Assembly: GCA_034003725.1 (NCBI GenBank) | Contig: JAVEYB010000002.1 | Span: forward strand, 265,392 to 329,391 | DNA length: 64,000 nucleotides | Source of the DNA: Candidatus Zixiibacteriota bacterium | GTDB lineage: Bacteria; Zixibacteria; MSB-5A5; GN15; FEB-12 | Direction: 5' to 3' | Shown here: positions 32,339 to 62,056 of the stretch, piece by piece | Layout: each line of letters begins with the position of its first letter | How positions within the stretch are numbered: position 1 is the first letter of the stretch | Notes under the pieces: generated by a model | The model's input: the letters and a program-made list of their open reading frames with translations, nothing else | What the model was told of the DNA's origin: nothing | Database searches by the model: none | Made by a program: the position numbers and the translations under genes

Positions 32339-32366
32339 CTAACCTGATCACAGTGACGCGGGTCCA

Positions 32367-36021: not shown

Positions 36022-36050
36022 ATTATATAACAAGCTCCAAGTTGCGTCAA
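36022..36050 (-). promoter_or_regulatory. near-consensus sigma70-type promoter for the DtxR-family gene
   Basis: Minus strand: TTGACG (36050..36045), a 17-nt spacer, then TATAAT (36027..36022). The -10 element lies inside the AT-rich palindrome CTTGTGAATTATATAACAAG (36015..36034), which could serve as an operator. Confidence 0.45.
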
Positions 36051-36280
36051 GTGTTTCTTTGAGCCCACGCTCGAATCTCGCACCACGCAGGTGTCCCCCA
36101 CGACGGCTCTCATCTGCTTATGCCATAATGCACTACAATTGGCTTGCCTCATCCCTTCAAGGGCTAGCACAAAGCTAGGATGATCCAAGATCGAGAATTT
36201 GGTCGGGGTACGGGCTTGTAAGAACTATTTCATGCTTCGGGTTACCGTGAAGACAAGTTACGGTTGTCACAAAGCATCAC

Positions 36281-36306
36281 AAAAAAAGACCCGCCGGCGG
36301 CGGGTC
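36281..36306 (-). terminator. rho-independent terminator of the yceI-like gene
   Basis: Stem GACCCGCC/GGCGGGTC (36288..36295 and 36299..36306) with a 3-nt loop. The A7 run at 36281..36287 reads as T7 on the minus strand. Confidence 0.6.
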
Positions 36307-36330
36307 TTCGACTAAAGTGACCGGTTGTCC

Positions 36331-36927: not shown

Positions 36928-37012
36928 ACTTCTTCTCCTGTTTCAACAGCGGTTTCAATTGGATTATCCTTCGATAACGGCCACCCGCCAGCGTTTGTTC
37001 CCAAGGGGATGA

Positions 37013-37597
37013 CTATCGTCCGACGTGCGTTCTCTGTCGGACGGCCTCGTACAGGCAGATGCCGGCAGCCACCGAGACATTCAGGCTTTCAACCCGGCCG
37101 TGCATCGGCAGGCTGGCGAGAAAATCACAGGACTCACGGGTCAATCGCCGGATGCCGGTCCCCTCCGATCCCATCACCAGAGCAGTCGGCCCGGTAAGAT
37201 CGCATTCATAGATTGTGCGCTCTGCGTCCATCACGGTGCCGACCAGCCATACGCCGGCCTGCCGCAACTCACGGAGCGATCGAGCCAGATTGGTAACCTG
37301 AATAAGGGGCACGTGCTCGGCAGCTCCACACGCCACGGTGCGGACGGTCGCGGTCATCGATACGGATCGATCTTTCGGTATGACGACCGCATGCGCTCCC
37401 GCGCCATCGGCCGACCTCAGGCAAGCGCCAAGGTTGTGGGGGTCAGTGATGCCGTCAAGGACCAGCAACAGGGGCCGGTCAACCTTCTCGAGCAGGACAA
37501 ACAGTTCATCTTCGGATCGCGCTCCCACCTCGGCGGAGAGGTTGGCATGCGGATTGACTCGCGGCCCGGTACGACTATTTCCATATCTCTTTGGCAT
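37013..37597 (-). CDS. SpoU/TrmH-family RNA 2'-O-methyltransferase (RlmB-like catalytic domain only)
   Basis: [24 protein letters not shown]...[17 protein letters not shown]....[22 protein letters not shown]. Start at ATG 37597 (GGAG SD). The 331-aa track ORF (to 38008) is an unlikely N-terminal extension that overlaps the opposite-strand gene. Confidence 0.85.
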
Positions 37598-37738
37598 CTT
37601 GACTCCTCTAGTGTTACTCCAATGAATGCCGACGGCAACCCCGGTGCAACGTCTTTCTGGAGTTTCGGGAGGCAATTGCATATGACAATAAGATTCCGAC
37701 AACCGTATATTGATGGAAACCTTCGTCGAGGATGAACC

Positions 37739-38353
37739 ATGTCTGCCAAAATACTGATCTTTGTCCTGCCGGCACTTGTGCTGTCGGCCTGCGCGTCGGT
37801 CGACAGGCACACGCTGCGCGACGGCGACATTCTCTTCCAGGACTTCGCCTCCTCGCAAAGCGAAGCGATTAAAATCGCCACCGGCTCGGAGTACAGCCAC
37901 TGCGGTGTCGTGTTTTTCGACGGTGATCGGCCGATGGTCTGGGAAGCGGTGCAACCGGTCACAATCACGCCGCTGACGGAGTGGATCGGTCGAGACATTG
38001 ACAGCCACTATGTGGTCATGCGGCTTCGGGATGGCGACAAACAGCTCTCCCCTGCGGCAATCGATGCCATGAAATCGTATGGCCGAGCGGTGATGGGACG
38101 CGACTACGATGCGCTGTTCGAGTGGAGCGATGATCGCTTCTACTGCTCGGAACTGGTTTGGAAGATCTACTCCGAGGGGGCGGCCATTGAGCTCTGTCCC
38201 CGCCGACCGATCGGTGATTACTCGCTGGACAATCCGGTCGTGCGAGAGAAACTCGCCGAACGCTACGGCGACTTAGTACCGCTGGACCGTATGGTCGTAG
38301 CGCCGTCCGACCTTTACAACTCACCTTTGGTAGAACTCGTGTACAGGAAGTAA
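37739..38353 (+). CDS. YiiX-like permuted papain/NlpC-P60-family lipoprotein
   Basis: Lipobox LVLSAC. It has GDILFQ...[10 protein letters not shown]...[12 protein letters not shown], matching the YiiX/YebB-type cysteine hydrolase pattern. Confidence 0.78.
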
Positions 38354-41557: not shown

Positions 41558-41564
41558 ATTTAAA

Positions 41565-41680
41565 CCCGGCAGCGTTCTACTCTCCCACACAGTCTCCCAT
41601 GCAGTACCATCGACGTAAACGGGCTTAACTGCTGTGTTCGGAATGGGAACAGGTGTTTCCCCGTCACTATCGCTACCGGA
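41565..41680 (-). rRNA. rrf: 5S rRNA
   Basis: The reverse complement reads CCGGTAGCGATAGTGACGGGGAAACACCTGTTCCCATTCCGAACACAGCAGTTAAGCCCGTTTACGTCGATGGTACTGCATGGGAGACTGTGTGGGAGAGTAGAACGCTGCCGGG, which carries canonical 5S motifs. Ends are accurate to a few nt. Confidence 0.9.
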
Positions 41681-41789
41681 ATATCTATCATAGTTTCTGC
41701 TGCGATGCGGTTTGGCATGCATCGCCCAACAGGCGCGCAGATCGCGCGGTTCTACGGCTTACTCTTAGAAGAGCGTTGATCGTAATTTA

Positions 41790-44803
<3,014 letters not shown>

Positions 44804-44894
44804 GATAACTCACCTAAGAGCATACCTATAGATGCAACGAATCTGCGCAGCCTGTTGGAAGATGCGCAAACCGTTTATTACAGCAGAAACTATG

Positions 44895-44909
44895 TAGTTG
44901 TCAAAGAAC
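44895..44909 (-). promoter_or_regulatory. boxA-like antitermination element in the spacer upstream of 23S
   Basis: The minus strand reads GTTCTTTGACAACTA. This is identical to the 15-mer in the 16S leader (46988..47002) and similar to E. coli rrn boxA TGCTCTTTAACAA. Confidence 0.5.
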
Positions 44910-44965
44910 CGTTGCCCGCCACCGGCGGGCTCTATCACACGCGAACTTGCGTTCGATAGCTGTCA

Positions 44966-45038
44966 TGGAGATGACCGGGATCGAACCGGTGACCTGTGGC
45001 TTGCAAAGCCACCGCTCTCCCAACTGAGCTACATCCCC
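44966..45038 (-). tRNA. tRNA-Ala (anticodon TGC)
   Basis: The reverse complement is GGGGATGTAGCTCAGTTGGGAGAGCGGTGGCTTTGCAAGCCACAGGTCACCGGTTCGATCCCGGTCATCTCCA. The G3-U70 identity pair is present. It lies in the 16S-23S spacer. Confidence 0.95.
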
Positions 45039-45052
45039 GAAATTCTCAGATA

Positions 45053-45129
45053 TGGTGGGCCTAAATGGAGTTGAACCATTGACCTCGCGCTTATCAGGCG
45101 CGCGCTCTAACCAACTGAGCTATAGGCCC
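45053..45129 (-). tRNA. tRNA-Ile (anticodon GAT), CCA encoded
   Basis: The reverse complement is GGGCCTATAGCTCAGTTGGTTAGAGCGCGCGCCTGATAAGCGCGAGGTCAATGGTTCAACTCCATTTAGGCCCACCA. Confidence 0.95.
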
Positions 45130-45286
45130 TTCCACGTAGGCCACCGCCTTACGGCAGTAACGTCATTTATATCTAAACAGCCAGCTAAAGAGCGGGCGAC
45201 ACGAAATCGCCCAAGATGCATGTCTCGAGGCTCGACCTGGATGCGATACCGGTCCGTGAGACCGGCGTGCACACCGTACTCCTTAG

Positions 45287-46838
<1,552 letters not shown>

Positions 46839-47051: not shown

Positions 47052-47080
47052 AGTATACCGGGGCTCGGTCGGTCTGTCAA
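47052..47080 (-). promoter_or_regulatory. candidate rrn promoter P2
   Basis: Minus strand: TTGACA (47080..47075), a 17-nt spacer, then TATACT (47057..47052). An A/T-rich UP-like tract (AAAAAGTCGAAAAAAAGG) lies immediately upstream. Confidence 0.5.
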
Positions 47081-47620: not shown

Positions 47621-47956
47621 ATGCTGGCAGTATCTGACAAGGCCTGTGAAGAGCTTCACAAGTTCTTCGAATCCGACCGTGGCAAAGACAACCACCTGAT
47701 CATCTTCTTCCAGGGCATGGCCTGTTCCGGACCATCGCTGGGCCTGACAGTCGACACCAAAGTCGACGAACTGGAGCGGATCGAAGCGAACGGAATCGAA
47801 GCGTATATCGACCCGAAACTTCGCGAGTTTCTGTCGCAGTTCAAGGGGATCCGAATCGACTACATCACGATGGACGACCGGTCGGGGTTTACGATCAAAG
47901 TTGAGGGCGCCGGCGGCTGCGCCAGCTGCGGCGACAAAAGCGAGCACTGCGGGTAG
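47621..47956 (+). CDS. HesB/IscA-like (A-type Fe-S carrier fold) protein, Cys form
   Basis: 111 aa from ATG 47621; the ORF opens at 47477. Sequence: MLAVSDKACEELHKFFESDRGKDNHLIIFFQGMACSGPSLGLTVDTKVDELERIEANGIEAYIDPKLREFLSQFKGIRIDYITMDDRSGFTIKVEGAGGCASCGDKSEHCG. It has the IscA-like layout, with Cys35 and a C-terminal Cys cluster. Confidence 0.82.
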   Translation: MLAVSDKACEELHKFFESDRGKDNHLIIFFQGMACSGPSLGLTVDTKVDELERIEANGIEAYIDPKLREFLSQFKGIRIDYITMDDRSGFTIKVEGAGGCASCGDKSEHCG

Positions 47957-48144
47957 GTATTTCCGCATCGCACGCAATAACAACAGACTTTCCGCGTGAC
48001 ACTCGGCGGTAGAAGGCATTAGCTTACAAGAGCGAGCGGTGATTCACCGCACGATGATTGAAATGCGGGGGAGGCATCCAGCCTCAGCATCATTGTCCAT
48101 CTTCCCCATCAGACAAACAATAATCAGTTCAGGGGAGGTACCTG

Positions 48145-50334
48145 ATGTTGGAAAAACCCGTTCAGTGGCGGCTTGCTTTCTTGCTTTGCGGCCTGATCTC
48201 TTGCCTGTCCTCAGCCAGCCTTACTGCGGCGGCAGAAGACACAACTATGAGCCGGCTGGAGTATTTGGCCACGTACGGATTCAATGCGGATTCGACCCAG
48301 AAATACCCGCTGTACATCCCAGGCGATTCTACCACGTATCTCGGCCCACGACAGACACTCTTTAGCAGACAGCACATAATCAACCAGTGGGTCGATTGCA
48401 GCCCTTCCCAAATGCCGACTTTGGTGTACTACTTCTATGCAGATTATGGTTACATAGATGTCAAGGTCGAGCCAATGGATTACAGCGTCAATTGGGATTT
48501 CTACGTGAGAACCAACGGGCTTTACCCCGAATCCGGCTCAATAGTGCTCCGAGGAGATGCTCACTCCTACGGAGAAGCAGAGGAAGGGTACTTCCACAAC
48601 GATTCCAAAGACAAGTTCGTTCTGATAATGGGACCTTCGGCTATTGACCAATGCGAGGGATTCGGTTGGGTGCAGGGAGTGACCATTACGCTCACGTACA
48701 CGCCCTACGAGTGGGATCTCCAGCTTACAAACGTGACGACCAGCACAGTATACCCCCAGAACTCAGCAACCATTACTGTGAACTGGCGAAACAATAATCC
48801 GGATAGCTTGTATGCAAGATCCAAGTTCGAGTATGGGTTCGACGTTGACCTCAAGTGGACGCCACACACGTGCTATTCGTCAGTCGATAGATCTAATCGT
48901 GTCTGGGATGATATTGCTCCATACGAAACAGTCTCGGAAACGTTCACAATCAATGGTCCTCAATCAGGGGCTATGAACGTGTTCGCCGTCATTGACGACT
49001 CGCAGGAACTACCACATTCTCCCTCGGGCGGTCCGTGGAACAACTGCTCTTCCCCTTTGCAGCTGCTTTGGTCAGTGCATCTAGAAGGTCAGTTATCATT
49101 ACTTGATCCACTGACTGCCACCTACCAGAACCTCGCTGGGTTTCAGTTTGAGTTCGTGCGCCCCGGCTGGACAACCACGGTCCTCGCCCAGGTCACCACA
49201 GATGCCAATGGACACTACACGGCTGAAATAGCCTCAGGAAACTTCGATATATATGCTCGAATCTCTTCAGAACAACCACCGCCGTACTTGCCTGTCAAGA
49301 ACTATGGCACGAGCGGGTACTTCCGCAGATCGTTCAACACCAACACCACTGCAACCGCAGCACAACATACAATCACCCTCCTTATTGATAGCTCAACTTT
49401 CGTCAGCCCTGACGCACTCTATCCTGCCTTGCGTATCACTCGCGACCTCTTCACTACCGACTCCCTGTTGTCTCAGGTTGAACCGTTCAGTTTGGCGGGC
49501 TGGGATTTCCGAAGTCTCGTTGATGTTTACATGGATACATCCGGGACCGCCACCCTCAGTGGTTGGGGGTTGGCTGGCCTCAATCCAGTGATCGTAATGC
49601 CTGCGTCGGAGTATGTTAATCAGATCGCCTGCCATGAGCTTGGGCATCAAGCCATGTATATGCTACAAAACAACGTGGTGCGGCCTCCGGCGCCCAGTTC
49701 TTCGCCGCACTGGCGGAATTCGGTCACCGATACGGTTTTCGCATTCGATGAGGGGTTCTCGGAGTTCGTCCATGGGATATCCACCAAGGACGAATTGCTC
49801 CGATCAACTACGGGGCTGACCGGCCCTCATCATCTGGAAACGAACCAGTACTGGCAGGGGACGGACTCAAATGTTGCGACGACGTACGAGGCGGATAGCG
49901 TCGAAGGTTGCGTGGCAAGTATACTGTACGACTTATATGACAACCGGACCACGCCTGCTTCGCGAACAATCGCCGAAGATGACCTTGTGCGCAGTCCGCA
50001 GTATATGCTCGAAGTCATCATGAAGAGCATCTTCAACTACCGCACTGGCGGTCAACAGACGCGGGCGCTGCGCACGTTCCTGGACAGAATGCTTCACGAC
50101 CCGGCCAATCCGTGGTTCACCGATTCGCTGGTGTTCGATCCAATGCGCACTGAGATATGCAATATCTTTCGAGACAATCACCTGACGACAGACTCCGATT
50201 TCTGCCAGGCATCAAGTATAGTATACGACATCGATACCAGCGCCACATACAACAGTCGCGCGGACCGGACAACCGAATTCTCGTCACAGCCGAGCGAGCC
50301 GACTGAAACCATGAAGAACGATGGTGACCTATGA
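48145..50334 (+). CDS. secreted multidomain HEXXH zinc-metalloprotease-like protein
   Basis: GGGGAGG SD and signal peptide MLEKPVQWRLAFLLCGLISCLSSASLTAAA. It has PPC-like, CARDB-like and carboxypeptidase-regulatory-like beta domains. The HELGH motif is at codons 497-501 (49633..49647), with a downstream FDEGFSEF as a candidate third-ligand Glu. Confidence 0.83.
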   Translation: MLEKPVQWRLAFLLCGLISCLSSASLTAAAEDTTMSRLEYLATYGFNADSTQKYPLYIPGDSTTYLGPRQTLFSRQHIINQWVDCSPSQMPTLVYYFYADYGYIDVKVEPMDYSVNWDFYVRTNGLYPESGSIVLRGDAHSYGEAEEGYFHNDSKDKFVLIMGPSAIDQCEGFGWVQGVTITLTYTPYEWDLQLTNVTTSTVYPQNSATITVNWRNNNPDSLYARSKFEYGFDVDLKWTPHTCYSSVDRSNRVWDDIAPYETVSETFTINGPQSGAMNVFAVIDDSQELPHSPSGGPWNNCSSPLQLLWSVHLEGQLSLLDPLTATYQNLAGFQFEFVRPGWTTTVLAQVTTDANGHYTAEIASGNFDIYARISSEQPPPYLPVKNYGTSGYFRRSFNTNTTATAAQHTITLLIDSSTFVSPDALYPALRITRDLFTTDSLLSQVEPFSLAGWDFRSLVDVYMDTSGTATLSGWGLAGLNPVIVMPASEYVNQIACHELGHQAMYMLQNNVVRPPAPSSSPHWRNSVTDTVFAFDEGFSEFVHGISTKDELLRSTTGLTGPHHLETNQYWQGTDSNVATTYEADSVEGCVASILYDLYDNRTTPASRTIAEDDLVRSPQYMLEVIMKSIFNYRTGGQQTRALRTFLDRMLHDPANPWFTDSLVFDPMRTEICNIFRDNHLTTDSDFCQASSIVYDIDTSATYNSRADRTTEFSSQPSEPTETMKNDGDL

Positions 50335-51401
50335 AATACTTCCTTATTACCATAACCGGCCTGGCGCTACTGACATTCTCAGCATCGCAGGCGCAGATCA
50401 ACCAGACCATAGAATTCCACACCTTCGACCAGATTGGTTTGAGATACGCCCCTCGGATAATCTCCGGCACGGTCTATTTTGAGAGTCTGCCGGAACCGCT
50501 GAAGAAGACGAGAGTTCGATTCGAAATCTACTTCAACTCCGTGGCCAACTACATTGGCGATAACCCCCTCGAACGTGACACCCTGGTGCACATTGCCTTC
50601 GAAGAATACCGGGTGGAAGTCTCAGATACGCTCTTTGTCTGGCCGGCACCAATTTACACCAACGAACCATTTAAAGGTGAGTTCGAAATAACACCGCTAA
50701 TGGCAGGAAACAGCTCCTTCGCCATTCACCTGATCGATCAACGGTTCGGGGCGCTTGGGGTTAGCTGGACCTTTGACGTTGACGGCAACCTTCTCTACCT
50801 GGGTAATCCAGCCGATACCACTCAAAAAGGAACCCGAGCTTACAAAGGCATCAACTACCCTGCCATCTTCTTTGAGGGTGACAGTATCGCTTTTGAACCA
50901 TACCCCGCATCAAATGCTCCGCCCTATGATGCATTGCGTTTCGCGTGCGTTATTACACCTGTCCCCCGAATTGGAGACACCTCGTACATCTCCTGCCGTG
51001 TCAACGCAATCAAGAGCATCGCTGATTCGGTCAGGATTGAACTTCGGAGGCGAGGCATTAGCGTACTTGGTGAACCTACAACGGCGGTGAAGTCGCTCAC
51101 AAGAGGTGAGGAGGAAGAATTTCGCACTGGGTTCGTCCCTTTGGCCGTGAACGGACCTCAGTACTTGTCATTCACTTTCAGGACAGTCGAGACCGAGCAG
51201 CAGCAAGTTATACCGCTCGACTTCGTCTTCAACAACGACAGCACTCTGCGATTCATCGGGAATCTCTTCAACTACGGCGATCATCCCCCCGATTCATATC
51301 TCCCGACTGCCTTCCAGAGTATGGAGGTCTATGAAGCGGCCCGCAAGGAAGAGAAGCGAAAAGTTGACTCTATCAAGAACGCCGGCGCCAAGCGGTTCTA
51401 A
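50331..51401 (+). CDS. secreted hypothetical protein (orphan) between the two peptidase-like genes
   Basis: 356 aa with signal peptide MKYFLITITGLALLTFSASQAQ. A 4-nt ATGA overlap with the upstream gene suggests translational coupling. It has a Lys/Glu-rich C-terminal tail and no recognised family motif. Confidence 0.78.
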   Translation: MKYFLITITGLALLTFSASQAQINQTIEFHTFDQIGLRYAPRIISGTVYFESLPEPLKKTRVRFEIYFNSVANYIGDNPLERDTLVHIAFEEYRVEVSDTLFVWPAPIYTNEPFKGEFEITPLMAGNSSFAIHLIDQRFGALGVSWTFDVDGNLLYLGNPADTTQKGTRAYKGINYPAIFFEGDSIAFEPYPASNAPPYDALRFACVITPVPRIGDTSYISCRVNAIKSIADSVRIELRRRGISVLGEPTTAVKSLTRGEEEEFRTGFVPLAVNGPQYLSFTFRTVETEQQQVIPLDFVFNNDSTLRFIGNLFNYGDHPPDSYLPTAFQSMEVYEAARKEEKRKVDSIKNAGAKRF

Positions 51402-51421
51402 CGGAATAGAGGGAGGACAAG

Positions 51422-53095
51422 ATGAAAACGAAACTTGTGATAGTAGCGCTGTTTGCAGCCGTGTGCCTGTCGAACGCTCAGGTACTCGCCCTCGGGCGAC
51501 TACTAATCATCACGAACGAAGAGATGAAGCCTGCGTTCGAGCACTATTCAGAATGGAAGTCGCTGTTCGGCATCCCTGCCGATATCGTCACGGTCGAATA
51601 CATCCAGACATCGTACGCCGGGGACAGCCTTCAAGTGAAGATCAGAGAGTGCCTGCGTGACTACCACAACAACCACCAGTCGGACTGGGCTATCCTCGGC
51701 GGAGATATCGACATTATCCCTCACATGATCGTTAATTCTCTCAGGGCGCATCCCGCCGGTGACACGTACTATACCAATCTGGACGGCGACTGGAACGCTA
51801 ACGGCAACGATCTTTTCGGAGAACCCCCGGGATACGGCGACCAGACGGACTATGAGCCGGATATTTTCGTCGCGCGCATCCCGTGTGTGGACAGCACCCA
51901 GGCAGCGACCGTTATTCGGAAGCTGGTCGAATACCAGTCCTGCCCGGCCGACACCAACTACCAGAATGAGGTGCTTCTGATGGGAACTCGCGTGATCGTG
52001 TCGATAGACAAGTCCGAAGACTTCTATCACCCGGTCGAAACAGAATATTTTCTGGACACCCTCATCCCCCATCTCCCAGCGAATCTCAACAGAACAAGAC
52101 TCTTCGAAGAGGCGTCACAGACCGTGAAGACGGAGTTGAGCGCCGGGTATGGCTTGATCGTCAACAACAGCCAGGCTCAATGGGCGGGCAACTTCCTCAC
52201 GCACTGGACTACCACCCCGTGGCATCGAGACGCCATTGAGTTCCCGTTTATGGCAGACTCCATGATGAACACTGGGAAATACAGCGTGTTTTTCAACTCG
52301 ACCTGCCTCAACAACTGCCTCTCCTCAACCGCTGCCATCGGCCGGCATTTTATGCTGAACCCGAATGGCGGCGGCGTTGCTTACATCGGGTCAAGCAATC
52401 TGGACTGGTTGGCCGCCAGCTACCCGGATTTCTGTTACGACATGATGGACTTGATGTTCGAGGACGGGTACGAAATCGGCAAAGCGTTCGCACTGGCAAA
52501 AGCTGCGCTGACACCCTCAGATGCCTGGCTTGACAACTACCGTCGGTTCGCCTACCACGCCTATATGCTGCTTGGAGATCCCCAGCTCAGCGTGTTCTCT
52601 GATGTCCCAAAAACACTGCGCAGCTCGCTCTCGATTCCACTTACGCCCGGCCAGATGACCTTTGTCGTGGCCGTGATATCGGACTCGGGCGAATCGGTGG
52701 CTGGCGCAACCGTATGCCTGACCCAGGACAGCACGGTATATGTAACCAGGCAGACCGATGGACTCGGGATCGCTACCTTCAGCGATGTTCTCTTTGAACA
52801 TGAAGGACTTGCGACAATCGGCATGATGAAGAGCGGCTACCTGATGCATCTCGATTCCGTGTTCGTAGGCGCCTGCTGTCTTGGTGTCCGGGGCAATGTA
52901 AACGGCGACCAACAGGATATCTGCGATCTAGCAGACCTTATGTTCCTTGTCAACTACCTCTTGCAAGGCGGGGCCGCACCTGAATGCTTTGACGAAGCAG
53001 ATCTCAACGCCGACGGTTCCATTGATTTGAGTGACGAGATTTACCTCACGAATTATTTGTTCCTGGGTGGTCAGGTACCTTACGATTGCCAGTAA
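51422..53095 (+). CDS. peptidase C25 (gingipain)-like secreted protein with double dockerin-like C-terminus
   Basis: AGGGAGGA SD and signal peptide MKTKLVIVALFAAVCLSNAQ. The C25 pattern is LLIITNEE...W.SLFGI...WAILGGDIDIIP...YTNLDGDW...EPDIFVARIP...VIRKLVEYQ. The candidate dyad is His261 (LTHW) and Cys295 (NSTCLNN), 34 residues apart. The C-terminus is CCLGVRGNVNGD..CDLADLMFLVNYLLQGG..P.C...LNADGSIDLSDEIYLTNYLFLGG. Confidence 0.86.
   Translation: MKTKLVIVALFAAVCLSNAQVLALGRLLIITNEEMKPAFEHYSEWKSLFGIPADIVTVEYIQTSYAGDSLQVKIRECLRDYHNNHQSDWAILGGDIDIIPHMIVNSLRAHPAGDTYYTNLDGDWNANGNDLFGEPPGYGDQTDYEPDIFVARIPCVDSTQAATVIRKLVEYQSCPADTNYQNEVLLMGTRVIVSIDKSEDFYHPVETEYFLDTLIPHLPANLNRTRLFEEASQTVKTELSAGYGLIVNNSQAQWAGNFLTHWTTTPWHRDAIEFPFMADSMMNTGKYSVFFNSTCLNNCLSSTAAIGRHFMLNPNGGGVAYIGSSNLDWLAASYPDFCYDMMDLMFEDGYEIGKAFALAKAALTPSDAWLDNYRRFAYHAYMLLGDPQLSVFSDVPKTLRSSLSIPLTPGQMTFVVAVISDSGESVAGATVCLTQDSTVYVTRQTDGLGIATFSDVLFEHEGLATIGMMKSGYLMHLDSVFVGACCLGVRGNVNGDQQDICDLADLMFLVNYLLQGGAAPECFDEADLNADGSIDLSDEIYLTNYLFLGGQVPYDCQ
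52874..53092 (+). other. CC-framed double dockerin-like C-terminal module, copy 3
   Basis: See 21065..21298 and 31203..31439. Confidence 0.6.
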
Positions 53096-53122
53096 CCCCT
53101 TAATTGCAAATATCTTACAGCG

Positions 53123-53151
53123 ATAGACGTCGCCGTCCCGGTGGCGTCTAT
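53123..53151 (+). terminator. hairpin downstream of the C25-like gene (possible terminator)
   Basis: ATAGACGTCGCC / GGTGGCGTCTAT form a 12-bp stem with two G-U pairs and a 5-nt loop (GTCCC). It is followed by TCCATTT, a weak T-tract. Confidence 0.4.
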
Positions 53152-53261
53152 TCCATTTATGGTGAATTTGAGACTCTTTGATCGCTATTCTGAATCAAAA
53201 GGGGTATATTTTCATCTAAAGATTGACCGATATCGACGAAGACGGCAATTTGAGGACTACT

Positions 53262-53591
53262 ATGCTAAACGTTTCCGACAAGGCCAGCCAGGAGCTCAAG
53301 ACATTCCTGGCGTCCGATAAAGGCAAGGGCAACCACCTTGTCATTTACTTCCAGGGCATGGGCTGAGGGGGCCCCAGTTTGGGGTTGGCTCTGGATGAGT
53401 CAGTGGATGGATTAGAAAAGCTCGAACACAACGGTATCGAGACGTATATTGAGGCCGGGCTGAAGGAGTTCCTGAAGCAGTTCGACGAAATCTCGATCGA
53501 TCATGTTACGATCGGGGGTCGTACGGGATTCGTCGTACGAGTCGGCGCGGGTTGCGACAGCGGCAGTTGCTCGTCCGGAACCTGCGGCTGA
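53262..53591 (+). CDS. HesB/IscA-like protein with in-frame TGA at codon 35 (candidate selenocysteine form)
   Basis: ATG 53262 follows a GAGGA SD. Sequence: MLNVSDKASQELKTFLASDKGKGNHLVIYFQGMG-[TGA 53364..53366]-GGPSLGLALDESVDGLEKLEHNGIETYIEAGLKEFLKQFDEISIDHVTIGGRTGFVVRVGAGCDSGSCSSGTCG. It aligns without gaps to the 47621..47956 paralog through residue 95 (the Cys-rich tails differ by 2 residues), and the TGA falls on that paralog's Cys35. The track lists only the 70-aa tail (53379..53591). Confidence 0.7.
53370..53386 (+). promoter_or_regulatory. candidate bacterial SECIS-like hairpin immediately 3' of the TGA
   Basis: GGCCCC (53370..53375) pairs with GGGGUU (53381..53386) through 4 G-C and 2 G-U pairs. 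The apical loop is AGUUU. The stem starts 4 nt after the UGA. Confidence 0.3.
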
Positions 53592-53619
53592 TATTAAACT
53601 GATAACGTGAACAAACACC

Positions 53620-53654
53620 CAGGCGGGTCGACCGCGGTCGTACCCGCCTGTTTT
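53620..53654 (+). terminator. rho-independent terminator of the TGA-containing hesB-like gene
   Basis: CAGGCGGGT (53620..53628) pairs with ACCCGCCTG (53642..53650), a 9-bp GC-rich stem, followed by TTTT. Confidence 0.6.
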
Positions 53655-53674
53655 GTGTCAGGGGCAAATCAATC

Positions 53675-53702
53675 TTGACTTGCCCGATCTTTGTGTTACT
53701 TT
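53675..53702 (+). promoter_or_regulatory. candidate promoter for tRNA-His
   Basis: TTGACT (53675..53680), a 16-nt spacer, then TACTTT (53697..53702). It lies about 12 nt upstream of the tRNA. Confidence 0.35.
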
Positions 53703-53713
53703 TGGTCTCGCCA

Positions 53714-53788
53714 TGCCGGGGTAGCTCAGTTGGTTAGAGCACCAGATTGTGGATCTGGGGGTCGAGCGTTCGAGCCGCTCCCCCGGTA
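53714..53788 (+). tRNA. tRNA-His (anticodon GTG)
   Basis: GCCGGGG TA GCTC AGTTGGTTA GAGC A CCAGA TTGTGGA TCTGG GGGGTC GAGCG TTCGAGC CGCTC CCCCGGT A. Position -1 is T rather than G, the discriminator is A, and there is a G1-U72 wobble. Confidence 0.85.
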
Positions 53789-54073
53789 TTTTCTCTTAAT
53801 GTCTCCGTAACAACCAGACGCGTCAGGATCCGACCGGAAGCGGTCCGGTTGTGTCACACCTGACTAAGCCGGCTGCAATCGTCCGCATCGCATTACGGTG
53901 CCGATTCTGTGCGTCCGCATGATCCTTTCGTGAAATCAGCTTCTTCGGCCCCATACGACGCGTGTTGCATTGCAAGCACTTCGCACTTCGGCACCGAACT
54001 TGCATTCTTCCCGGTTCACACGCGGAACGGGGGCACATCATGTGACAGCCTTCGACGCAGGGAGGTACCGAAG

Positions 54074-54682
54074 ATGAAACACGCGCTGCGCGCACTCATC
54101 GCCGGAATGATCATCCTCCTCGTTGGCCCGGGTTCGGACATCGTCGCATTTCCACTGACAACTATCGACTTTGATGATCTTTCCGACGGAACGTTGGTCA
54201 GTGACCAGTATGCCGCGCTCGGTATCACGTTTGCCGGATATGACATATTCGGCTCACGCGATATACGATCGGGCTATTTCGGAGGACCGTCGGGCACAAT
54301 CGTGCTCGATTCGTATTGTAACGGCGGGGGGTATATCCAGGCCACGTTTACCGGACCGGTCGACTTCGTGTCAGTCGACTTCCAGCTCTTCGAGGGCGAT
54401 GATCCGTTGACACTCGAACTGTACAATGCGGCCGGGGAAATCGTAGTCAGCCGGACGGTTTTCGGGCTCGATGATCAGTGGTACACGCTGACGGCGCGAT
54501 CTGCCGCCCAGGACGTAGCCTTCGCCCGATTCTATGGATTCGGCGACGACGGAGTAAACGCCGTGTACAACGACAACATCTCATTCGGAAACTCTGCCGT
54601 CATACCGGAGCCCGCCACATTTGGACTGGTCGGCCTGGGGTTGTTGTCGCTCGCCGTAGTACGACGGCAGCATCGGCGATAG
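54074..54682 (+). CDS. PEP-CTERM sorting-domain protein
   Basis: GGAGG SD and ATG 54074 (MKHALRALIAGMIILLVGPG). The C-terminus VIPEPATFGLVGLGLLSLAVVRRQHRR has the PEP motif, a TM helix and a basic tail. The ORF opens at 53909. Confidence 0.85.
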   Translation: MKHALRALIAGMIILLVGPGSDIVAFPLTTIDFDDLSDGTLVSDQYAALGITFAGYDIFGSRDIRSGYFGGPSGTIVLDSYCNGGGYIQATFTGPVDFVSVDFQLFEGDDPLTLELYNAAGEIVVSRTVFGLDDQWYTLTARSAAQDVAFARFYGFGDDGVNAVYNDNISFGNSAVIPEPATFGLVGLGLLSLAVVRRQHRR

Positions 54683-54799
54683 TGGCCGAGTCGCTCCTGA
54701 TCCGCAGTGTGACCGGCGGAACCAGACGGATGGTTCCGCCTGCTTTTTTGAGGAATCAGCTGTCGGTACTGGTGTGGCGAATGACTGGCGGTCACGTGC

Positions 54800-55177
54800 T
54801 CAACGTCCGGTGGCCCCGGGGTAGACATCATCGGGGCCCGCCTCCCGGCGCCGTTCCTGCCACTGGTCGAACAGGCGGCCTTTGCGAAGTCCCTGCAAGC
54901 GGGCTTTCTGACGGGCCTCCTGAATCGGCTGATTGGGGCGCAGGGGAAGGTCGCACAATCCCTGCAGCGCCATTACCTGCTCGCGCTCGCCTTCCCGGCG
55001 GCGGAAATGAATGATGTTGAATTCCAGGTCCGGGAGGTCGTCCTCGTCCTCCGGCAGGAATATCGACCACAGCTCGCGAGGCAGACCGTCCAGCATCAGT
55101 TGGATGTTGTCATAGTGGTACAGTGCTTCGTCCACGTCGTAGTTCATTGCCGACTCGATGACTTGGAGACCGGACAC
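54800..55177 (-). CDS. hypothetical protein (acidic N-half, basic C-half)
   Basis: 125 aa with a GTG start; ATG 55147 is an alternative. No family was recognised. It lies downstream of the signalling gene on the same strand. Confidence 0.5.
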   Translation of the reverse strand: MSGLQVIESAMNYDVDEALYHYDNIQLMLDGLPRELWSIFLPEDEDDLPDLEFNIIHFRRREGEREQVMALQGLCDLPLRPNQPIQEARQKARLQGLRKGRLFDQWQERRREAGPDDVYPGATGR

Positions 55178-55311: not shown

Positions 55312-57426
55312 TCAGAACAGGTGCCGGGCGATTTCGTCTTTGCGGCGGCAACCCTCGATCAGGATCGCTTCGTTGGACAGGAAGTTATTGGGCTGGCTCA
55401 CGTTACCGTCGAGAATCGGCTCCACCGACCAGCTGCCGCGCTCCCAGGTCATGCCGATATAAATGGCGTCTGCGCCCTCGAGCGCACCCAACTTGGCCCA
55501 GACGATATTGCCGTGATCCAGACAGATTTCCAGGCGCTCCCTGCTCGGCGATTCCGGAGTGACGGTGATGCGGGTGGTCTTGCGGCTTGGCCCGAGTGCC
55601 TGCAGCAGATCGATCAGGTTCATGTCATTGAGGCTGCCGCGGGACTGTAGATGACCGTTCTCGCCGTCACGGTCCTGCTCGGGAAGTCTTTCTTTCTGAT
55701 TCCATGCCTTCTTGATCTTGAGGGCGACCATATCCAGACTGGAGTCATTGTCGATGATGTCTTCTATGCCTTCCTCGAGTAGCGACGTAAGGTGCGGCAT
55801 GACACTTCCCCGCGCGATCAAAAACGTGGGTACGGACTTGAAGTCAATCCCCAAGCGGACCAGGTCGTTGACTTGTGAAATGATTTCGCGCGGGTGCGCC
55901 TGAAGATACAAAACAAGAACATCGGGTACGCTGCGCCGGTACAACTGCAAGAACAGCTCCCGCAGGTCGCAGCTGATCGTGCGAAATGACTCCGCCCTGA
56001 GGCGCAGTTCGAGCGGCTCGGTTGCCGTCGCATCATCGGTGAAAATCATGATCTGCCCGAGCCGGGAAAACATCGGCGAGTTCAGCACCTCTTCCCGGAT
56101 CAGGGCAACGAATGCGACAAGCACGTCGGGTAATACCAGCCGGCCGACGTGAGCCTCAAGCGCGGTGCGAATGGCCTCGAACCGCTCCAGCGTGAGTCTC
56201 TGGTTCGGTACGACCTGCTCGTGGAACATGTCAACGATAGTCAGAATGTTTCCGCCGATCGCCTGCACCGGCAGGTCGCTTTGCTGCCATGCCGACAGGT
56301 CGAGGTACATGCAACGGAGCATGTCCAGGGCGTCGGGTTTGTAGTAGACCGACTGCAGGATCTTCGTTGCGAGACTGAGCAGTCTTCGCAGGCTGCGCGG
56401 ACCGGTCGCCATGTTGTACAGCTTGGCGCGGTCGAGCAGATGGCACGCCTCGATGAGGCTTCGGCGCTGGCTCTCGTTGAGATTCAGGCGGACGGCAAGG
56501 CGGTCGGCATAGTGGGTTGTTTTCGCGCTGTACGAAGTCGGCTGGCGGTCCTTGATCGTGAGAAGTGAGGTAAACAGTTCGAGATCATGATGGAGCGGAT
56601 CATTGGGGTACAAGGCCGTGTCGTTCTCGAGGATCAGGTCGGCGATCGTATCGAAGCAGCGCAGGCGCGGGGCGCGCTGCAGGTCTCCGAGGTGCTGGAG
56701 CAGATCGGCGCCCTCCCCCTTCCCCGTGTCGTGCACGAGAACGATCGCGTAGTCACCCCCGGCCAGGAGCTTGCGGGCTTTCTCCACCGACTCGGCGTGC
56801 TGGACCTTGTAGGTGCTCCGTTCGAGCAGGAGCTTTATTACCGACGCGTAGCTGGTGTCGCCGGTGACGAGCAAAACGGTTCCTTCCTCCGGATTTCGCC
56901 GTGCCAGCTCGTAGGTGTATCCGCCGGCCAGTGAGGCGCCCCGGTGCTCGCCGATGAAGCCCGATTCTGAGGCGTGGTCGCCGCCATAGTACCGGCTTAT
57001 GGCAAGGTTCAAAGACAGTTCGACAGCCACGCAGAGCCTGATCGTGCGACCGGGCACGAGCGCGTGCAGTTCATCGAGCAGCGCCCCATCGCGTGGATTC
57101 TCGCAGGCCACCGTCAGTGTGTTGGTTTTTTCGTCGAACGCACAGGGAATGATCTTGCGGGTAAACGCCACGCTCGCCGGCAGCATTGCGATTATAGGTT
57201 GAGGGATATCCAGTCCGGAGAGTTGAACGCCTTTGCACTCGAGTTGTTTTTCGAGTGCCGCCACCAGCTCGCCCTCGCTGACAAAACCGTGATGGAGCAG
57301 ATGAGAGCCGAATTTCCCGCCGAATGTCTTCTGGTGCTTGAGGGCAATTCGAATTTGCTCGTCCGACAGCTGCTGCTTATCGGCCAGGATTTCATCGAGG
57401 CGAGGACGATGGTTGGCTGAAGTCAT
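55312..57426 (-). CDS. multidomain signalling protein: T2SSE_N/MshEN-like N-domain, REC-like domains, C-terminal DUF4388
   Basis: The N-terminus RLDEILADKQQLSDEQIRIALKHQ...GELVAALEKQL...LTVACENPRD follows the GspE/MshE N-domain pattern. VLLVTGDTSYASVIKLLL...YAIVLVHD is REC-like. The C-terminus GSLNDMNLIDLLQALGPSRKTTRITV...GNIVWAKLG...A....MTWERGSWSVEP matches the DUF4388 pattern. Start taken at ATG 57426; GTG 57474 is possible. Confidence 0.82.
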   Translation of the reverse strand: MTSANHRPRLDEILADKQQLSDEQIRIALKHQKTFGGKFGSHLLHHGFVSEGELVAALEKQLECKGVQLSGLDIPQPIIAMLPASVAFTRKIIPCAFDEKTNTLTVACENPRDGALLDELHALVPGRTIRLCVAVELSLNLAISRYYGGDHASESGFIGEHRGASLAGGYTYELARRNPEEGTVLLVTGDTSYASVIKLLLERSTYKVQHAESVEKARKLLAGGDYAIVLVHDTGKGEGADLLQHLGDLQRAPRLRCFDTIADLILENDTALYPNDPLHHDLELFTSLLTIKDRQPTSYSAKTTHYADRLAVRLNLNESQRRSLIEACHLLDRAKLYNMATGPRSLRRLLSLATKILQSVYYKPDALDMLRCMYLDLSAWQQSDLPVQAIGGNILTIVDMFHEQVVPNQRLTLERFEAIRTALEAHVGRLVLPDVLVAFVALIREEVLNSPMFSRLGQIMIFTDDATATEPLELRLRAESFRTISCDLRELFLQLYRRSVPDVLVLYLQAHPREIISQVNDLVRLGIDFKSVPTFLIARGSVMPHLTSLLEEGIEDIIDNDSSLDMVALKIKKAWNQKERLPEQDRDGENGHLQSRGSLNDMNLIDLLQALGPSRKTTRITVTPESPSRERLEICLDHGNIVWAKLGALEGADAIYIGMTWERGSWSVEPILDGNVSQPNNFLSNEAILIEGCRRKDEIARHLF

Positions 57427-57590
57427 AGCGCTTTCATCACTTCTTTGGCGTTCGGCGGGGCGCTGGACCCTCACAGGGTCAAACCGCGCGAGCCCCGTCT
57501 ACACTAGTATCGGTCGATCCGGTACGGTCATAACCGCGGTTACCCCCGGATACTGCGCATGATTTGCACAATAGCATCGGAGAAAGACTT

Positions 57591-61375: not shown

Positions 61376-61495
61376 CGGATCCCTATCAGCATTCTTCTCA
61401 TCTGCTGAACCAACCAACTTCTAGCAACCATCACTCTCCGTACCTGTTATCTTCCACCTACGCGAACTTAACTGATGTTACGCGGAGAGAAATCA

Positions 61496-62056
61496 ATGAG
61501 AAGGATCGCAATGCCAGCCGGCCTTGCGTTGTTGATCACGGCAACGGGGTGTTCGGATAGTAGAATCAGGTCCGATGTGCGTGATGGACGCGTCAATCGT
61601 GACAGGCGCTCGCTAGTCGGGTTGGACTCGATGCACATTTATGTGTCCAGCCATATAGAGGGACGGACGGCCGATGCCTCGACGTCCGACGTAACCGCCC
61701 ATTTGACCTCGCGCTTTGACCCGGCTGGACTGGCGATCACTCGTTCCGCATTCCTGTTGAATGCAGGGTATGTAAGCGTTTGGATAGACGGCTACTCGGC
61801 AGATACCCAGCCGGACAGTATCCTTCCACACAACTTCTTCGGTGCCCTGATGCAACTGGAACGCTATGTACAGATTCGTACTGCACGACCGCCCAAGGCC
61901 GAAGATGAGAGACTCAGCCCTGCGGCGACGTGGAAGAAATTTGGCTTGGGATCATGTCCGGTTGATTCACTCAACGAGTACACACGGCGTCTAATCGCGG
62001 CATGGACGGACACCCTTCTATTGGAATTTCAGGTCCAGCGCCAACCCGTGCATTAG
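61496..62056 (+). CDS. hypothetical lipoprotein
   Basis: GGAGAGA SD and ATG 61496 (MRRIAMPAGLALLITATGC, lipobox). No family was recognised. Confidence 0.68.
   Translation: MRRIAMPAGLALLITATGCSDSRIRSDVRDGRVNRDRRSLVGLDSMHIYVSSHIEGRTADASTSDVTAHLTSRFDPAGLAITRSAFLLNAGYVSVWIDGYSADTQPDSILPHNFFGALMQLERYVQIRTARPPKAEDERLSPAATWKKFGLGSCPVDSLNEYTRRLIAAWTDTLLLEFQVQRQPVH

What the first reader, a model, noticed from the sequence alone, without database searches (positions are those of the whole stretch)
47621..53788. Cys and TGA forms of the HesB-like gene bracket a lower-GC three-gene secreted-peptidase cassette between the rrn promoters and tRNA-His
The two paralogs sit immediately outside a co-directional block of three signal-peptide proteins at 48145..50334, 50331..51401 and 51422..53095. 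Within the block there is a 4-nt ATGA overlap and then a 20-nt gap with a strong SD. It is therefore probably one transcript, ending near hairpin 53123..53151.

Spot GC counts of single 60-nt lines inside the block were:
- 48361: 30
- 48781: 26
- 49021: 36
- 49261: 32
- 50401: 29
- 50641: 27
- 51721: 30
- 52201: 35
- 52621: 35

The mean is about 31/60. Lines in core genes gave 36-39/60: 5161: 36, 8401: 39, 24001: 36, 38401: 39. The drop is clearest in the first two genes.

The block lies between an rRNA operon and a tRNA gene, both common recombination landmarks. I see no integrase, no transposase and no tRNA-derived direct repeat.

Two readings are possible. A tandem hesB-like duplication may have been split by a foreign cassette. 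Alternatively, the five genes may work together, for example as carrier-type Cys/Sec proteins linked to maturation or metal loading of secreted Cys and Zn peptidases. The second reading would be undescribed.
Basis: partly seen in the sequence, partly recalled or inferred. Interest (0 to 1): 0.7.

Follow-up and report, generated by a model that had tools for sequence, protein, structure and literature searches.

The report
Foreign secreted-protein operon splitting a Cys/Sec gene pair
In this Zixibacteria genome, a small lower-GC operon for three secreted proteins has been inserted between two old neighbouring copies of a HesB-like gene, one using cysteine and one using selenocysteine; this is an ordinary gene-gain event, not a new five-gene system.

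Summary
A Cys form (47621..47956) and an in-frame-TGA form (53262..53591) of a HesB-like gene flank three co-directional signal-peptide genes. The block lies between the 16S 5' end and tRNA-His. Its GC is 0.531 against 0.577±0.012 for the rest of the window, and its codon and tetranucleotide usage are atypical.

Two related genomes, a GN15 bin and MAG50, have rrn – hesB(Cys) – 135/136 bp – hesB(Sec) – tRNA-His with no cassette. A third relative (L002 type) has the cassette with the same junctions but has lost about 2 kb, the first gene.

The same three-gene unit occurs at 28–40% identity on an unrelated contig with no hesB-like gene upstream. None of 32 further C25-relative loci carries a hesB-like gene. 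The cassette is therefore an autonomous, acquired operon inserted into an ancestral tandem Cys/Sec pair. The five-gene functional reading is not supported.

The TGA form belongs to the known HesB-like selenoprotein kind: it has the UxGP motif, and the 39 nt after TGA are nearly invariant in four orthologs. The cassette's "C25 peptidase" has Gln in place of the catalytic His. Gene 1 is a near-orphan with a conserved HExxH motif. Interest is low to moderate.

The parts
45287..46838 (-). 16S rRNA gene, the first gene of the rrn operon (16S, tRNA-Ile, tRNA-Ala, 23S, 5S; 41564..46838). Its promoter and leader region (46839..~47600) faces the hesB-like Cys gene.
   Evidence: Rfam RF00177, 1592.7 bits. 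A promoter-like site lies on the minus strand at 47080..47052. The leader is conserved in L002, L011 and L012.
47621..47956 (+). HesB/IscA-like gene, Cys form (111 aa, CxGP motif at Cys35). Left member of the ancestral tandem pair.
   Evidence: Best NCBIfam matches are NF038090 IscA_HesB_Se (57.7 bits) and TIGR01911 (42.9 bits), and PF01521 scores 21.1; all are below the curated cut-offs. Orthologs are 95, 88-89 and 78-79% identical in L002, L012 and L011.
47957..48144 (+). Left intergenic region belonging to the insert, probably the cassette's promoter and 5' UTR with an SD (GGGGAGG) before 48145. There is no strong terminator after the Cys gene.
   Evidence: 47957..48122 is about 80% identical to L002 1175..1336, although L002 lacks gene 1. 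It is not alignable to the 135/136-bp spacers of L011 and L012. The fold is no better than shuffles, z -0.6.
48145..50334 (+). Cassette gene 1: 729-aa signal-peptide protein. It is a near-orphan. Its C-terminal domain has conserved HELGH and a downstream EGF motif, so it is a putative zinc metallopeptidase on motif evidence only.
   Evidence: Among 5.8 billion proteins only its own sequence was found. One homolog at 38% identity, split into 433 + 332 aa, is on L014. The motifs are conserved in alignment A6. There is no Pfam, NCBIfam, PHROG or PDB match. It has the strongest codon-usage deviation, z -8.4.
50331..51401 (+). Cassette gene 2: 356-aa signal-peptide protein of an uncharacterised family.
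   Evidence: 84 cluster representatives have E <= 1e-3 among 1.84 billion; most are 24-38% identical, one is 57%. There is no Pfam, NCBIfam or PHROG hit. Orthologs are in L002 (59%) and L014 (28%). Family members also occur alone, without a C25 neighbour, in L018 and L020.
51422..53095 (+). Cassette gene 3: 557-aa signal-peptide protein with a Peptidase_C25 (gingipain-like) domain, an Ig-like domain and a C-terminal type I dockerin. The catalytic Cys (C295) is kept, and the catalytic His is replaced by Gln (Q251).
   Evidence: PF01364 scores 152.5 bits and PF00404 scores 23.8 (26.2 for the isolated C-terminal fragment). A profile alignment to gingipain R places the GHG motif on the column that reads Q in the window, L002-type, L014 and L015/16 proteins, and H in all more distant homologs, including L023.
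53122..53152 (+). Hairpin ending the cassette transcript: terminator-like with a weak T tail.
   Evidence: 14-bp stem, -21.7 kcal/mol, z -3.9. L002 has a classical hairpin plus T-run at the same position.
53262..53591 (+). HesB/IscA-like gene, selenocysteine form (109 codons, TGA at 53364..53366, UxGP motif). Right member of the ancestral tandem pair.
   Evidence: The translation reads through one TGA aligned to Cys35 of the paralog. TGA is kept in all four orthologs, and the protein downstream of it is conserved (84-91% overall) while third-codon positions are only 58-70% identical. NF038090 scores 68.2 bits with Cys substituted.
53364..53405 (+). TGA codon plus candidate bacterial SECIS stem-loop(s) overlapping the coding sequence.
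   Evidence: Only 2 of 42 columns vary among four Sec orthologs, against 12 of 42 in the four Cys orthologs and 26/102 and 57/141 in the rest of the Sec gene. The predicted stem-loop starts at the UGA and has a GUU apical loop. No Rfam family matches.
53620..53650 (+). Terminator-like hairpin after the Sec gene, followed by GUUUUGUGU.
   Evidence: -27 kcal/mol, z -3.5.
53714..53789 (+). tRNA-His (GTG). Conserved right-hand landmark of the locus in all relatives.
   Evidence: ARAGORN and Rfam.
53909..54682 (+). PEP-CTERM protein gene: a second, independent variable insert just after tRNA-His. It is not part of the cassette.
   Evidence: PF07589 scores 27.2 bits. It is absent in L012 and replaced by a P-type ATPase in L002.

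Best explanation
The ancestral state in this Zixibacteria/GN15 group is rrn promoter region, then hesB-like (Cys), then a spacer of about 135 bp, then hesB-like (Sec, TGA plus SECIS), then tRNA-His.

The two hesB-like genes are old paralogs, 55% identical, of the known HesB-like selenoprotein kind. They are small cytoplasmic IscA/HesB-type proteins whose key ligand or redox residue is either Cys or Sec. By analogy with Sec/Cys isoform pairs, the Cys copy is most plausibly a selenium-independent counterpart of the Sec copy. This step is inferred.

In the common ancestor of the window genome and the L002-type genomes, an operon of about 5.2 kb with lower GC was inserted into the spacer. It carries its own upstream region, translationally coupled genes and a terminator hairpin. 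It encodes three secreted proteins:
1. A new HExxH protein, possibly a zinc peptidase.
2. A protein of an uncharacterised 340-360-aa family.
3. A gingipain-like C25 protein with a dockerin, whose catalytic His is Gln.

The L002 lineage later deleted about 2 kb, removing gene 1.

The insertion left both hesB-like genes intact, along with the roughly 95 bp upstream of the Sec gene. The mechanism was probably illegitimate or homology-facilitated recombination of foreign DNA. No integrase, transposase, att-like repeat or target duplication is visible, so this step is also inferred.

The bracketing of the cassette by the two paralogs is a historical accident of where the DNA landed, not a functional unit.
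For: 1. Uninterrupted tandem pairs with intact Cys and Sec genes, 135 and 136 bp apart and flanked by 16S and tRNA-His, occur in L011 (GN15 bin WJMS01000292.1) and L012 (MAG50 JAHLKV010000001.1). tblastn finds no remnant of any cassette protein there.
2. The window and L002 share both junction sequences: 47957..48122 matches L002 1175..1336, and there is one continuous alignment from gene 2 to tRNA-His. This indicates a single insertion event.
3. L002 keeps the region upstream of gene 1 and a remnant of the gene's last ~50 codons directly before its 372-aa gene, so it lost gene 1 by deletion.
4. Composition is atypical. Cassette GC is 0.531 against 0.577 ± 0.012, with 0 of 418 windows as low. 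The tetranucleotide z is 7.8, and codon-usage z values are -8.4, -4.9 and -2.3. In L002 the cassette is 0.505 against 0.575.
5. The same three-gene order occurs on L014 (GC 0.489) at 38, 28 and 40% identity, with an unrelated upstream gene. On L015 the gene downstream of the C25 gene is a signal-peptide protein, not hesB-like.
6. None of the 32 loci around C25 relatives (up to 8 kb of flank each side where the contig allows) encodes a hesB-like protein.
7. Orthologs of each hesB form are closer to each other (78-95%) than the paralogs are (55%), so the duplication predates the four genomes.
8. Selenoprotein status is supported by the conserved TGA at the Cys35 column, the UxGP motif listed for the HesB-like family (PMC13188914), the near-invariant 39 nt after TGA, and the predicted hairpin.
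Against: - The branching order of the window, L002 and L012 is not resolved by the short shared sequences. The Cys gene, leader and tRNA spacer favour window+L002, while the Sec gene favours L002+L012. One gain plus one clean loss therefore cannot be excluded.
- The spacers have diverged too far to map the insertion point to the base, and no mechanistic scar was found.
- The lower GC is partly due to amino-acid composition, seen in low GC1. Gene 3 is only marginally atypical in codon usage.
- No terminator follows the Cys gene, so read-through into the cassette is possible.
- Sec-decoding genes are not in the window, so Sec insertion rests on sequence signatures alone.
Confidence: 0.85

Rival explanations
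1. The five genes form one functional module. The Cys and Sec HesB-like carriers would mature or metal-load the secreted Cys and Zn peptidases.
For: All five genes are co-directional. There is no strong terminator between the Cys gene and gene 1. The arrangement is kept in two lineages, the window and the L002 type.
Against: - The hesB-like pair exists without the cassette in L011 and L012.
- The cassette exists without hesB-like neighbours in L014 and L015, and in 0 of 32 further C25 loci.
- The HesB-like proteins lack signal peptides, while the cassette proteins are exported.
- L002 has lost the only candidate Zn enzyme.
- The C25 homolog lacks the catalytic His.
- The cassette's composition differs from that of the hesB-like genes, whose codon z values are +2.3 and -0.7.
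Confidence: 0.04
2. The cassette is ancestral at this site and was deleted cleanly in the L011 and L012 lineages.
For: The window/L002/L012 branching order is unresolved. Deletions do occur here: about 2 kb was lost in L002.
Against: - It needs two independent deletions, each leaving both hesB-like genes intact and almost the same spacer length (135 and 136 bp), with no remnant.
- The most divergent genome, L011, lacks the cassette.
- The cassette is compositionally foreign in both carriers.
- A diverged copy of the unit sits in another context.
Confidence: 0.08
3. The TGA form is a decaying pseudogene of a duplicated hesB-like gene, not a selenoprotein gene.
For: No Sec machinery is present in the 64-kb window. 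No Rfam SECIS family matches. The local hairpin energy in the window sequence is no better than shuffles.
Against: - TGA is the only stop, sits at the same codon in four genomes and aligns with the conserved Cys.
- The reading frame after it is intact and under purifying selection: 84-91% amino-acid identity against about 60% third-position identity.
- The 39 nt after TGA are nearly invariant, unlike in the Cys paralog.
- HesB-like is an established selenoprotein family with a UxGP motif (PMC1794560, PMC13188914).
Confidence: 0.04

Closest known systems
HesB-like selenoprotein family (TIGR01911 HesB_rel_seleno; NF038090 IscA_HesB_Se), described in bacterial and archaeal selenoproteome surveys (PMC1794560, PMC13188914)
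   Same: It is a small (~110 aa) IscA/HesB-type protein. Sec or Cys sits in a U/CxGP motif at the conserved Cys of the Fe-S_biosyn domain, with an in-frame TGA followed by a constrained stem-loop region. Both Sec and Cys forms are known for this family.
   Different: Both window proteins score below the curated cut-offs of both NCBIfam models and of PF01521, so they form a divergent subgroup. The C-terminus carries C-x2-C-x6-C (Cys form) or C-x4-C-x5-C (Sec form) instead of the CGC motif of A-type carriers. The conserved tandem Cys+Sec pair next to rrn and tRNA-His was not found described in the papers read.
Sec/Cys isoform gene pairs of Methanococcus maripaludis (PMC11097638)
   Same: One genome encodes both a selenocysteine and a cysteine version of the same protein. 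This is the basis for the inferred back-up role of the Cys copy.
   Different: In M. maripaludis the switch is shown experimentally for methanogenesis enzymes and is controlled by HrsM. Its HesB-like selenoprotein has no reported Cys isoform, and its function is unknown. Nothing about regulation is shown here.
Gingipain / PorU family (MEROPS C25; PF01364; PDB 1CVR, 4RBM, 6ZA2)
   Same: Gene 3 has a full-length C25 domain followed by an Ig-like domain, and it retains the catalytic Cys column.
   Different: The catalytic His is Gln across the whole cassette clade, and no His is invariant among its four members. It has a C-terminal type I dockerin instead of a T9SS C-terminal domain. Protease activity is therefore doubtful.
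Small genomic islets at tRNA/rRNA-proximal variable sites
   Same: The cassette shows atypical composition, presence/absence polymorphism among close relatives, and a location beside rrn and a tRNA gene. A second variable insert lies just after tRNA-His.
   Different: There is no integrase, no tRNA-derived direct repeat and no mobility gene. The insertion is not in or at the tRNA but in the spacer of a gene pair about 350 bp upstream of it.

Membership tests
HesB-like selenoprotein (TIGR01911 / NF038090) | Score at or above the curated whole-protein cut-off of the family model | tested here: not met
   TIGR01911 scores 42.9 and 40.5 against a cut-off of 66.35. NF038090 scores 57.7 and 68.2 against 85. 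These are the best-scoring families but remain below cut-off.
HesB-like selenoprotein (TIGR01911 / NF038090) | Sec (or Cys) in a UxGP / CxGP motif at the conserved Cys of the HesB domain | tested here: met
   The motifs are MG-U-GGP and MA-C-SGP at column 35, which is invariant in six sequences. The UxGP motif is listed for the family in PMC13188914.
HesB-like selenoprotein (TIGR01911 / NF038090) | In-frame TGA followed by a bacterial SECIS stem-loop | tested here: inconclusive
   TGA is conserved in four orthologs. Only 2 of 42 columns vary after it, against 12 of 42 in the Cys orthologs. A stem-loop with a GUU loop is predicted. However, there is no covariation because the region is invariant, no Rfam match, and the energy is not better than shuffles in the window copy.
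HesB-like selenoprotein (TIGR01911 / NF038090) | Host has the Sec-decoding trait (selA, selB, selC, selD) | not testable with these tools
   None of these genes is in the 64-kb window. The rest of the 464-kb contig and the genome could not be read.
A-type Fe-S carrier (IscA/SufA/ErpA; PF01521) | Pfam gathering score, and the three Cys ligands C...CGC | tested here: not met
   PF01521 scores 21.1 and 22.1 against 26.3. The equivalog models for IscA, SufA and ErpA are far below their cut-offs. The C-terminal cysteines are spaced C-x2-C-x6-C and C-x4-C-x5-C, not CGC.
Peptidase family C25 (gingipain-like) | Domain match above the gathering score | tested here: met
   PF01364 scores 152.5 bits against 23 and covers profile positions 2-373 of 374. 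A profile hits gingipain R and K structures at E of 1e-23 or below.
Peptidase family C25 (gingipain-like) | Catalytic His-Cys dyad | tested here: not met
   The Cys column is kept (C295). The His column (GHG of RgpB) is Gln (Q251) in the window protein and its three closest relatives, and His in all more distant homologs. No His is invariant in the clade.
Zinc metallopeptidase with HExxH (gluzincin-like) | HExxH plus a third ligand, and a match to a peptidase family model or structure | tested here: inconclusive
   HELGH and a downstream EGF glutamate are conserved between the only two homologs. There is no Pfam, NCBIfam or PDB match, and the single-sequence AlphaFold model was unusable, with pLDDT 36.
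tRNA-associated integrative genomic island | Integrase or recombinase gene, and a direct repeat of the tRNA 3' end | tested here: not met
   No such gene lies between 46838 and 55300. The tRNA-His 3' 20-mer occurs only once with up to 3 mismatches allowed. No flanking repeats were found.
Horizontally acquired gene block (operational definition) | Atypical composition plus presence/absence among close relatives | tested here: met
   GC, tetranucleotide and codon usage are all atypical. The block is absent from L011 and L012 and present in the window, L001 and the L002 type.

The most novel reading that the evidence does not exclude
The cassette may be a previously undescribed three-component secreted module. 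A new HExxH protein family, currently known from only two sequences, would work together with a 340-360-aa protein of unknown fold and a dockerin-bearing C25 homolog whose catalytic His has become Gln. The C25 homolog would then act as a non-proteolytic binding or scaffold partner, or use altered chemistry. Separately, the conserved tandem Cys/Sec HesB-like pair could be a bacterial selenium-responsive isoform switch. Because no terminator follows the Cys gene, it could have placed the inserted operon under selenium-dependent read-through.
Probability: 0.2. Interest if true: 0.45.

Novelty: new member of a known kind. Interest (0 to 1): 0.27.

Why it matters
This is a clean, small example of operon gain without any mobile-element hallmark, and comparative data resolve its history: insertion into the spacer of a gene pair, followed by partial deletion in a sister lineage. 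It adds Zixibacteria/GN15 members, as a conserved tandem Cys+Sec pair, to the HesB-like selenoprotein family, whose function remains unknown. NCBI names the Cys gene only 'hypothetical protein', and gene callers split the Sec gene into 34-aa and 70-aa fragments. The analysis also flags a clade of C25 'peptidases' that lack the catalytic His, which should not be annotated as active cysteine peptidases. None of this changes current understanding of selenoproteins or secretion.

Tried and rejected
- **Structure of gene 1.** A single-sequence AlphaFold2 run on the C-terminal domain gave pLDDT 36 and pTM 0.24, which is unusable, so no fold search was run.
- **Sequence and profile searches for gene 1.** Searches against the PDB found nothing. 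Pfam at E <= 10 gave only chance-level hits to SprT-like and DUF4595.
- **SECIS in Rfam.** An E-value-threshold scan of 53200..53700 gave only chance hits and no SECIS family.
- **Insertion junctions.** Aligning the L011 and L012 spacers with the window and L002 intergenic regions showed only weak shared blocks in the ~95 bp upstream of the Sec gene. No target duplication or inverted repeat was found.
- **Possible microhomology.** AGAYAWRCAATAWTC occurs at 48103 and 50153 and could have mediated the L002 deletion. I noted it but it is too weak to claim.
- **tRNA-His-derived att repeat.** None was found.
- **Phage origin.** The viral contig scan found no relative, and there were no PHROG hits.
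- **More hesB-like loci.** A scan of JGI metagenome contigs with the HesB alignment found nothing. The word-index protein search found only two relatives, so the synteny sample is four lineages.
- **Taxonomy of the 356-aa family.** The cluster look-up returned no organism names.
- **Assembly artefact.** Rejected, because an independent assembly (L001) gives the same structure and 17 contigs were read that carry the L002-type protein (9 places shown).
- **GC drop explained purely by amino-acid composition of secreted proteins.** Rejected, because usage of synonymous codons (normalised for amino-acid content) is also deviant in genes 1 and 2, while other secreted proteins in the window are typical: z is -1.4 for the PEP-CTERM protein and +1.6 for the TIG-domain protein.

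Full report
**1. What is at the coordinates**

The window comes from a candidate division Zixibacteria MAG. The cassette proteins are identical to NCBI entries named 'MAG... [candidate division Zixibacteria bacterium]', locus tag RBT76_04255, on a contig of 464,501 bp.

An rRNA operon lies on the minus strand at 41564..46838, ordered 5S, 23S, tRNA-Ala, tRNA-Ile, 16S. Downstream on the plus strand the order is:
- A 111-aa HesB/IscA-like gene with Cys35 in the motif MACSGP, at 47621..47956.
- Three co-directional genes at 48145..50334 (729 aa), 50331..51401 (356 aa) and 51422..53095 (557 aa).
- A second HesB-like gene starting at 53262, with a single in-frame TGA at 53364..53366 (MG-U-GGP) and a stop at 53591.
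- tRNA-His at 53714..53789.

All three cassette proteins begin with signal-peptide-like N-termini. An independent assembly from another run (L001) has the identical arrangement, so this is not a mis-assembly.

**2. Composition**

The cassette has GC 0.531. Equal-size windows outside the rrn operon and the cassette average 0.577 ± 0.012, and none of 418 is as low. Its tetranucleotide distance from the window background has z = 7.8.

I scored each gene's synonymous-codon choice against the pooled usage of the 35 other long ORFs in the window. This was done leave-one-out and normalised for each gene's amino-acid content. The cassette genes score z = -8.4, -4.9 and -2.3, against a background mean of -0.2, sd of 1.85 and worst value of -5.4. 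The two hesB-like genes are typical, at +2.3 and -0.7.

Part of the GC drop comes from first-codon positions, which reflects amino-acid content.

**3. Synteny test**

The Cys protein has few detectable relatives, but their contexts are decisive.
- **L011** (candidate division GN15 bin, WJMS01000292.1; Cys protein 79% identical): 16S, hesB(Cys), 135 bp, hesB(Sec, TGA), tRNA-His.
- **L012** (MAG50, JAHLKV010000001.1; 89% identical; rrn operon 95.6% identical over 5.7 kb): the same layout with a 136-bp spacer. tblastn finds no trace of any cassette protein in these loci.
- **L002 type** (17 contigs read that carry it, 9 places shown; Cys protein 95% identical): hesB(Cys), a 372-aa gene, a 557-aa C25 gene, hesB(Sec), tRNA-His.

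The window and L002 share the sequence on both sides of the insert. Window 47957..48122 matches L002 1175..1336 at about 80%. A continuous alignment runs from gene 2 through tRNA-His. This indicates one insertion event.

L002 lacks the 729-aa gene. It retains that gene's upstream intergenic region and a recognisable remnant of its last ~50 codons just before the 372-aa gene. L002 therefore lost about 2 kb by deletion.

Orthologs of each hesB form are 78-95% identical across the four genomes, whereas the Cys and Sec paralogs are about 55% identical. The duplication is therefore older than these lineages.

One caveat applies. The branching order of the window, L002 and L012 is not resolved by the short shared segments. 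'One gain' is the most parsimonious history, but it is not proven. It rests on four points:
- L011 is the most divergent genome in most of these comparisons and lacks the cassette.
- The window and L002 share both junctions.
- The cassette is compositionally foreign in both carriers (0.505 against 0.575 in L002).
- The unit exists independently elsewhere (section 4).

**4. The cassette is an autonomous unit with no link to hesB-like genes**

The C25 protein's next relatives, at about 40% identity, lie on short metagenome contigs.
- On **L014** (5.6 kb, GC 0.489) the order is a 729-like gene (split into 433 + 332 aa, 38% identical), a 351-aa gene (28%) and a 575-aa C25 gene (40%). The partial gene upstream is not HesB-like.
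- On **L015** the C25 gene is preceded by a member of the 356-aa family and followed by a signal-peptide protein, not a hesB-like gene.

A scan of JGI metagenome contigs returned 32 further loci around C25 relatives, each with up to 8 kb of flank per side where the contig allows. tblastn with both HesB-like forms finds none of them in any of these loci.

In addition, the HesB-like proteins have no signal peptide, while the three cassette proteins are exported.

**5. What the parts are**

*HesB-like genes.* The best family matches are NF038090 (IscA_HesB_Se) and TIGR01911 (HesB_rel_seleno). Both are below the curated cut-offs, as is PF01521.

HesB-like is an established selenoprotein family with Sec and Cys forms (PMC1794560) and a UxGP motif (PMC13188914). 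The motif here is U-G-G-P. Its function is still unclear even in Methanococcus (PMC11097638).

The evidence that the TGA is decoded as Sec, rather than marking a pseudogene, is as follows:
- It is the only stop, sits at the same codon in four genomes and aligns with the invariant Cys.
- The frame after it is intact, with 84-91% amino-acid identity against about 60% third-position identity.
- In the 42 nt starting at the TGA, only 2 columns vary among the Sec orthologs. This compares with 12 in the Cys orthologs and with 26/102 and 57/141 elsewhere in the Sec gene.
- A stem-loop with a GUU loop starting at the UGA is predicted.

The limits are these. The region is invariant, so there is no covariation. 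No Rfam family matches. The window contains no selA, selB, selD or tRNA-Sec.

*Gene 1 (729 aa).* In a search of 5.8 billion proteins it matched only itself, and L014 is its only relative. HELGH and a downstream EGF glutamate are conserved between the two. This suggests a zinc metallopeptidase, but no family model or solved structure matches, and a single-sequence structure prediction failed.

*Gene 2 (356 aa).* It belongs to an uncharacterised family of 340-360-aa signal-peptide proteins, with 84 representatives among 1.84 billion. Members also occur alone, far from any C25 gene.

*Gene 3 (557 aa).* It has a full Peptidase_C25 domain (152.5 bits), an Ig-like domain and a type I dockerin. A profile of 12 homologs aligns to gingipain R and K and to PorU structures. 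The GHG catalytic-His column is Gln (Q251, 'NNSQAQW') in the window protein, the L002-type protein and the two 40%-identical relatives. It is His in every more distant homolog, including L023 at 35% identity. The catalytic Cys (C295) is kept, and no His is invariant within the clade. Calling it an active cysteine peptidase is therefore not justified.

**6. Mechanism and what remains inferred**

*Shown:*
- The ancestral tandem pair.
- A single shared insertion in two lineages.
- A later deletion in one of them.
- The foreign composition of the cassette.
- The independent occurrence of the unit elsewhere.

*Inferred:*
- The mode of insertion. There is no integrase, transposase, att-like repeat, target duplication or viral relative.
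- A back-up role for the Cys paralog.
- The functions of the secreted proteins.

The neighbourhood is generally plastic. A PEP-CTERM gene follows tRNA-His in the window, a P-type ATPase follows it in L002, and nothing follows it in L012.

**7. Verdict**

Reading 1, insertion into a tandem pair, is supported. Reading 2, a five-gene functional unit, is not. The components are new members of known kinds: a divergent HesB-like Cys/Sec pair and a small acquired operon. The details of modest interest are the His-to-Gln C25 clade and the near-orphan HExxH protein.

Noticed in passing
window 51422..53095 (residue Q251; C295): The cassette's C25 homolog and its three closest relatives (the L002 type, L014, and L015/L016) have Gln where gingipains and all more distant homologs have the catalytic His. 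The catalytic Cys is retained. This is probably a non-canonical or inactive 'peptidase' clade.
   Followed up: yes
window 53790..54860; L002 5004..8190; L012 9105..9270: A second variable site lies immediately after tRNA-His. The window carries a PEP-CTERM protein gene (53909..54682), L002 carries a 904-aa P-type ATPase, and L012 carries neither. No tRNA-derived repeat is present.
   Followed up: partly
window 55312..57474 (- strand): A 720-aa MshEN + DUF4388 (PatA_N) protein gene is present in the window and L002. It is absent from the corresponding position in L012, where 276 bp replace about 2.5 kb.
   Followed up: no
L002 1325..1504 vs window 50155..50330, and window 48103..48120: L002 keeps a remnant of the 3' end of the 729-aa gene. 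A short similar motif (AGAYAWRCAATAWTC) occurs at both deletion end-points in the window sequence, hinting at microhomology-mediated deletion.
   Followed up: partly
window 61475..62056 (+): This 193-aa ORF has no Pfam match. It has the most deviant codon usage outside the cassette (z -5.4, GC3 0.60) and may be another acquired gene or a non-coding ORF.
   Followed up: no
window 31500..37950: This stretch has lower GC (0.536-0.582 in 1-kb windows from 32001 to 37000, against about 0.58) and raised tetranucleotide distance. Its genes were not characterised.
   Followed up: no
window 53262..53591: Gene callers split the Sec gene into 34-aa and 70-aa fragments in the related assemblies L002-L004 (the 34-aa fragment is also called on L001). 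NCBI names the Cys form only 'hypothetical protein', so the selenoprotein is probably unannotated in the public record.
   Followed up: partly
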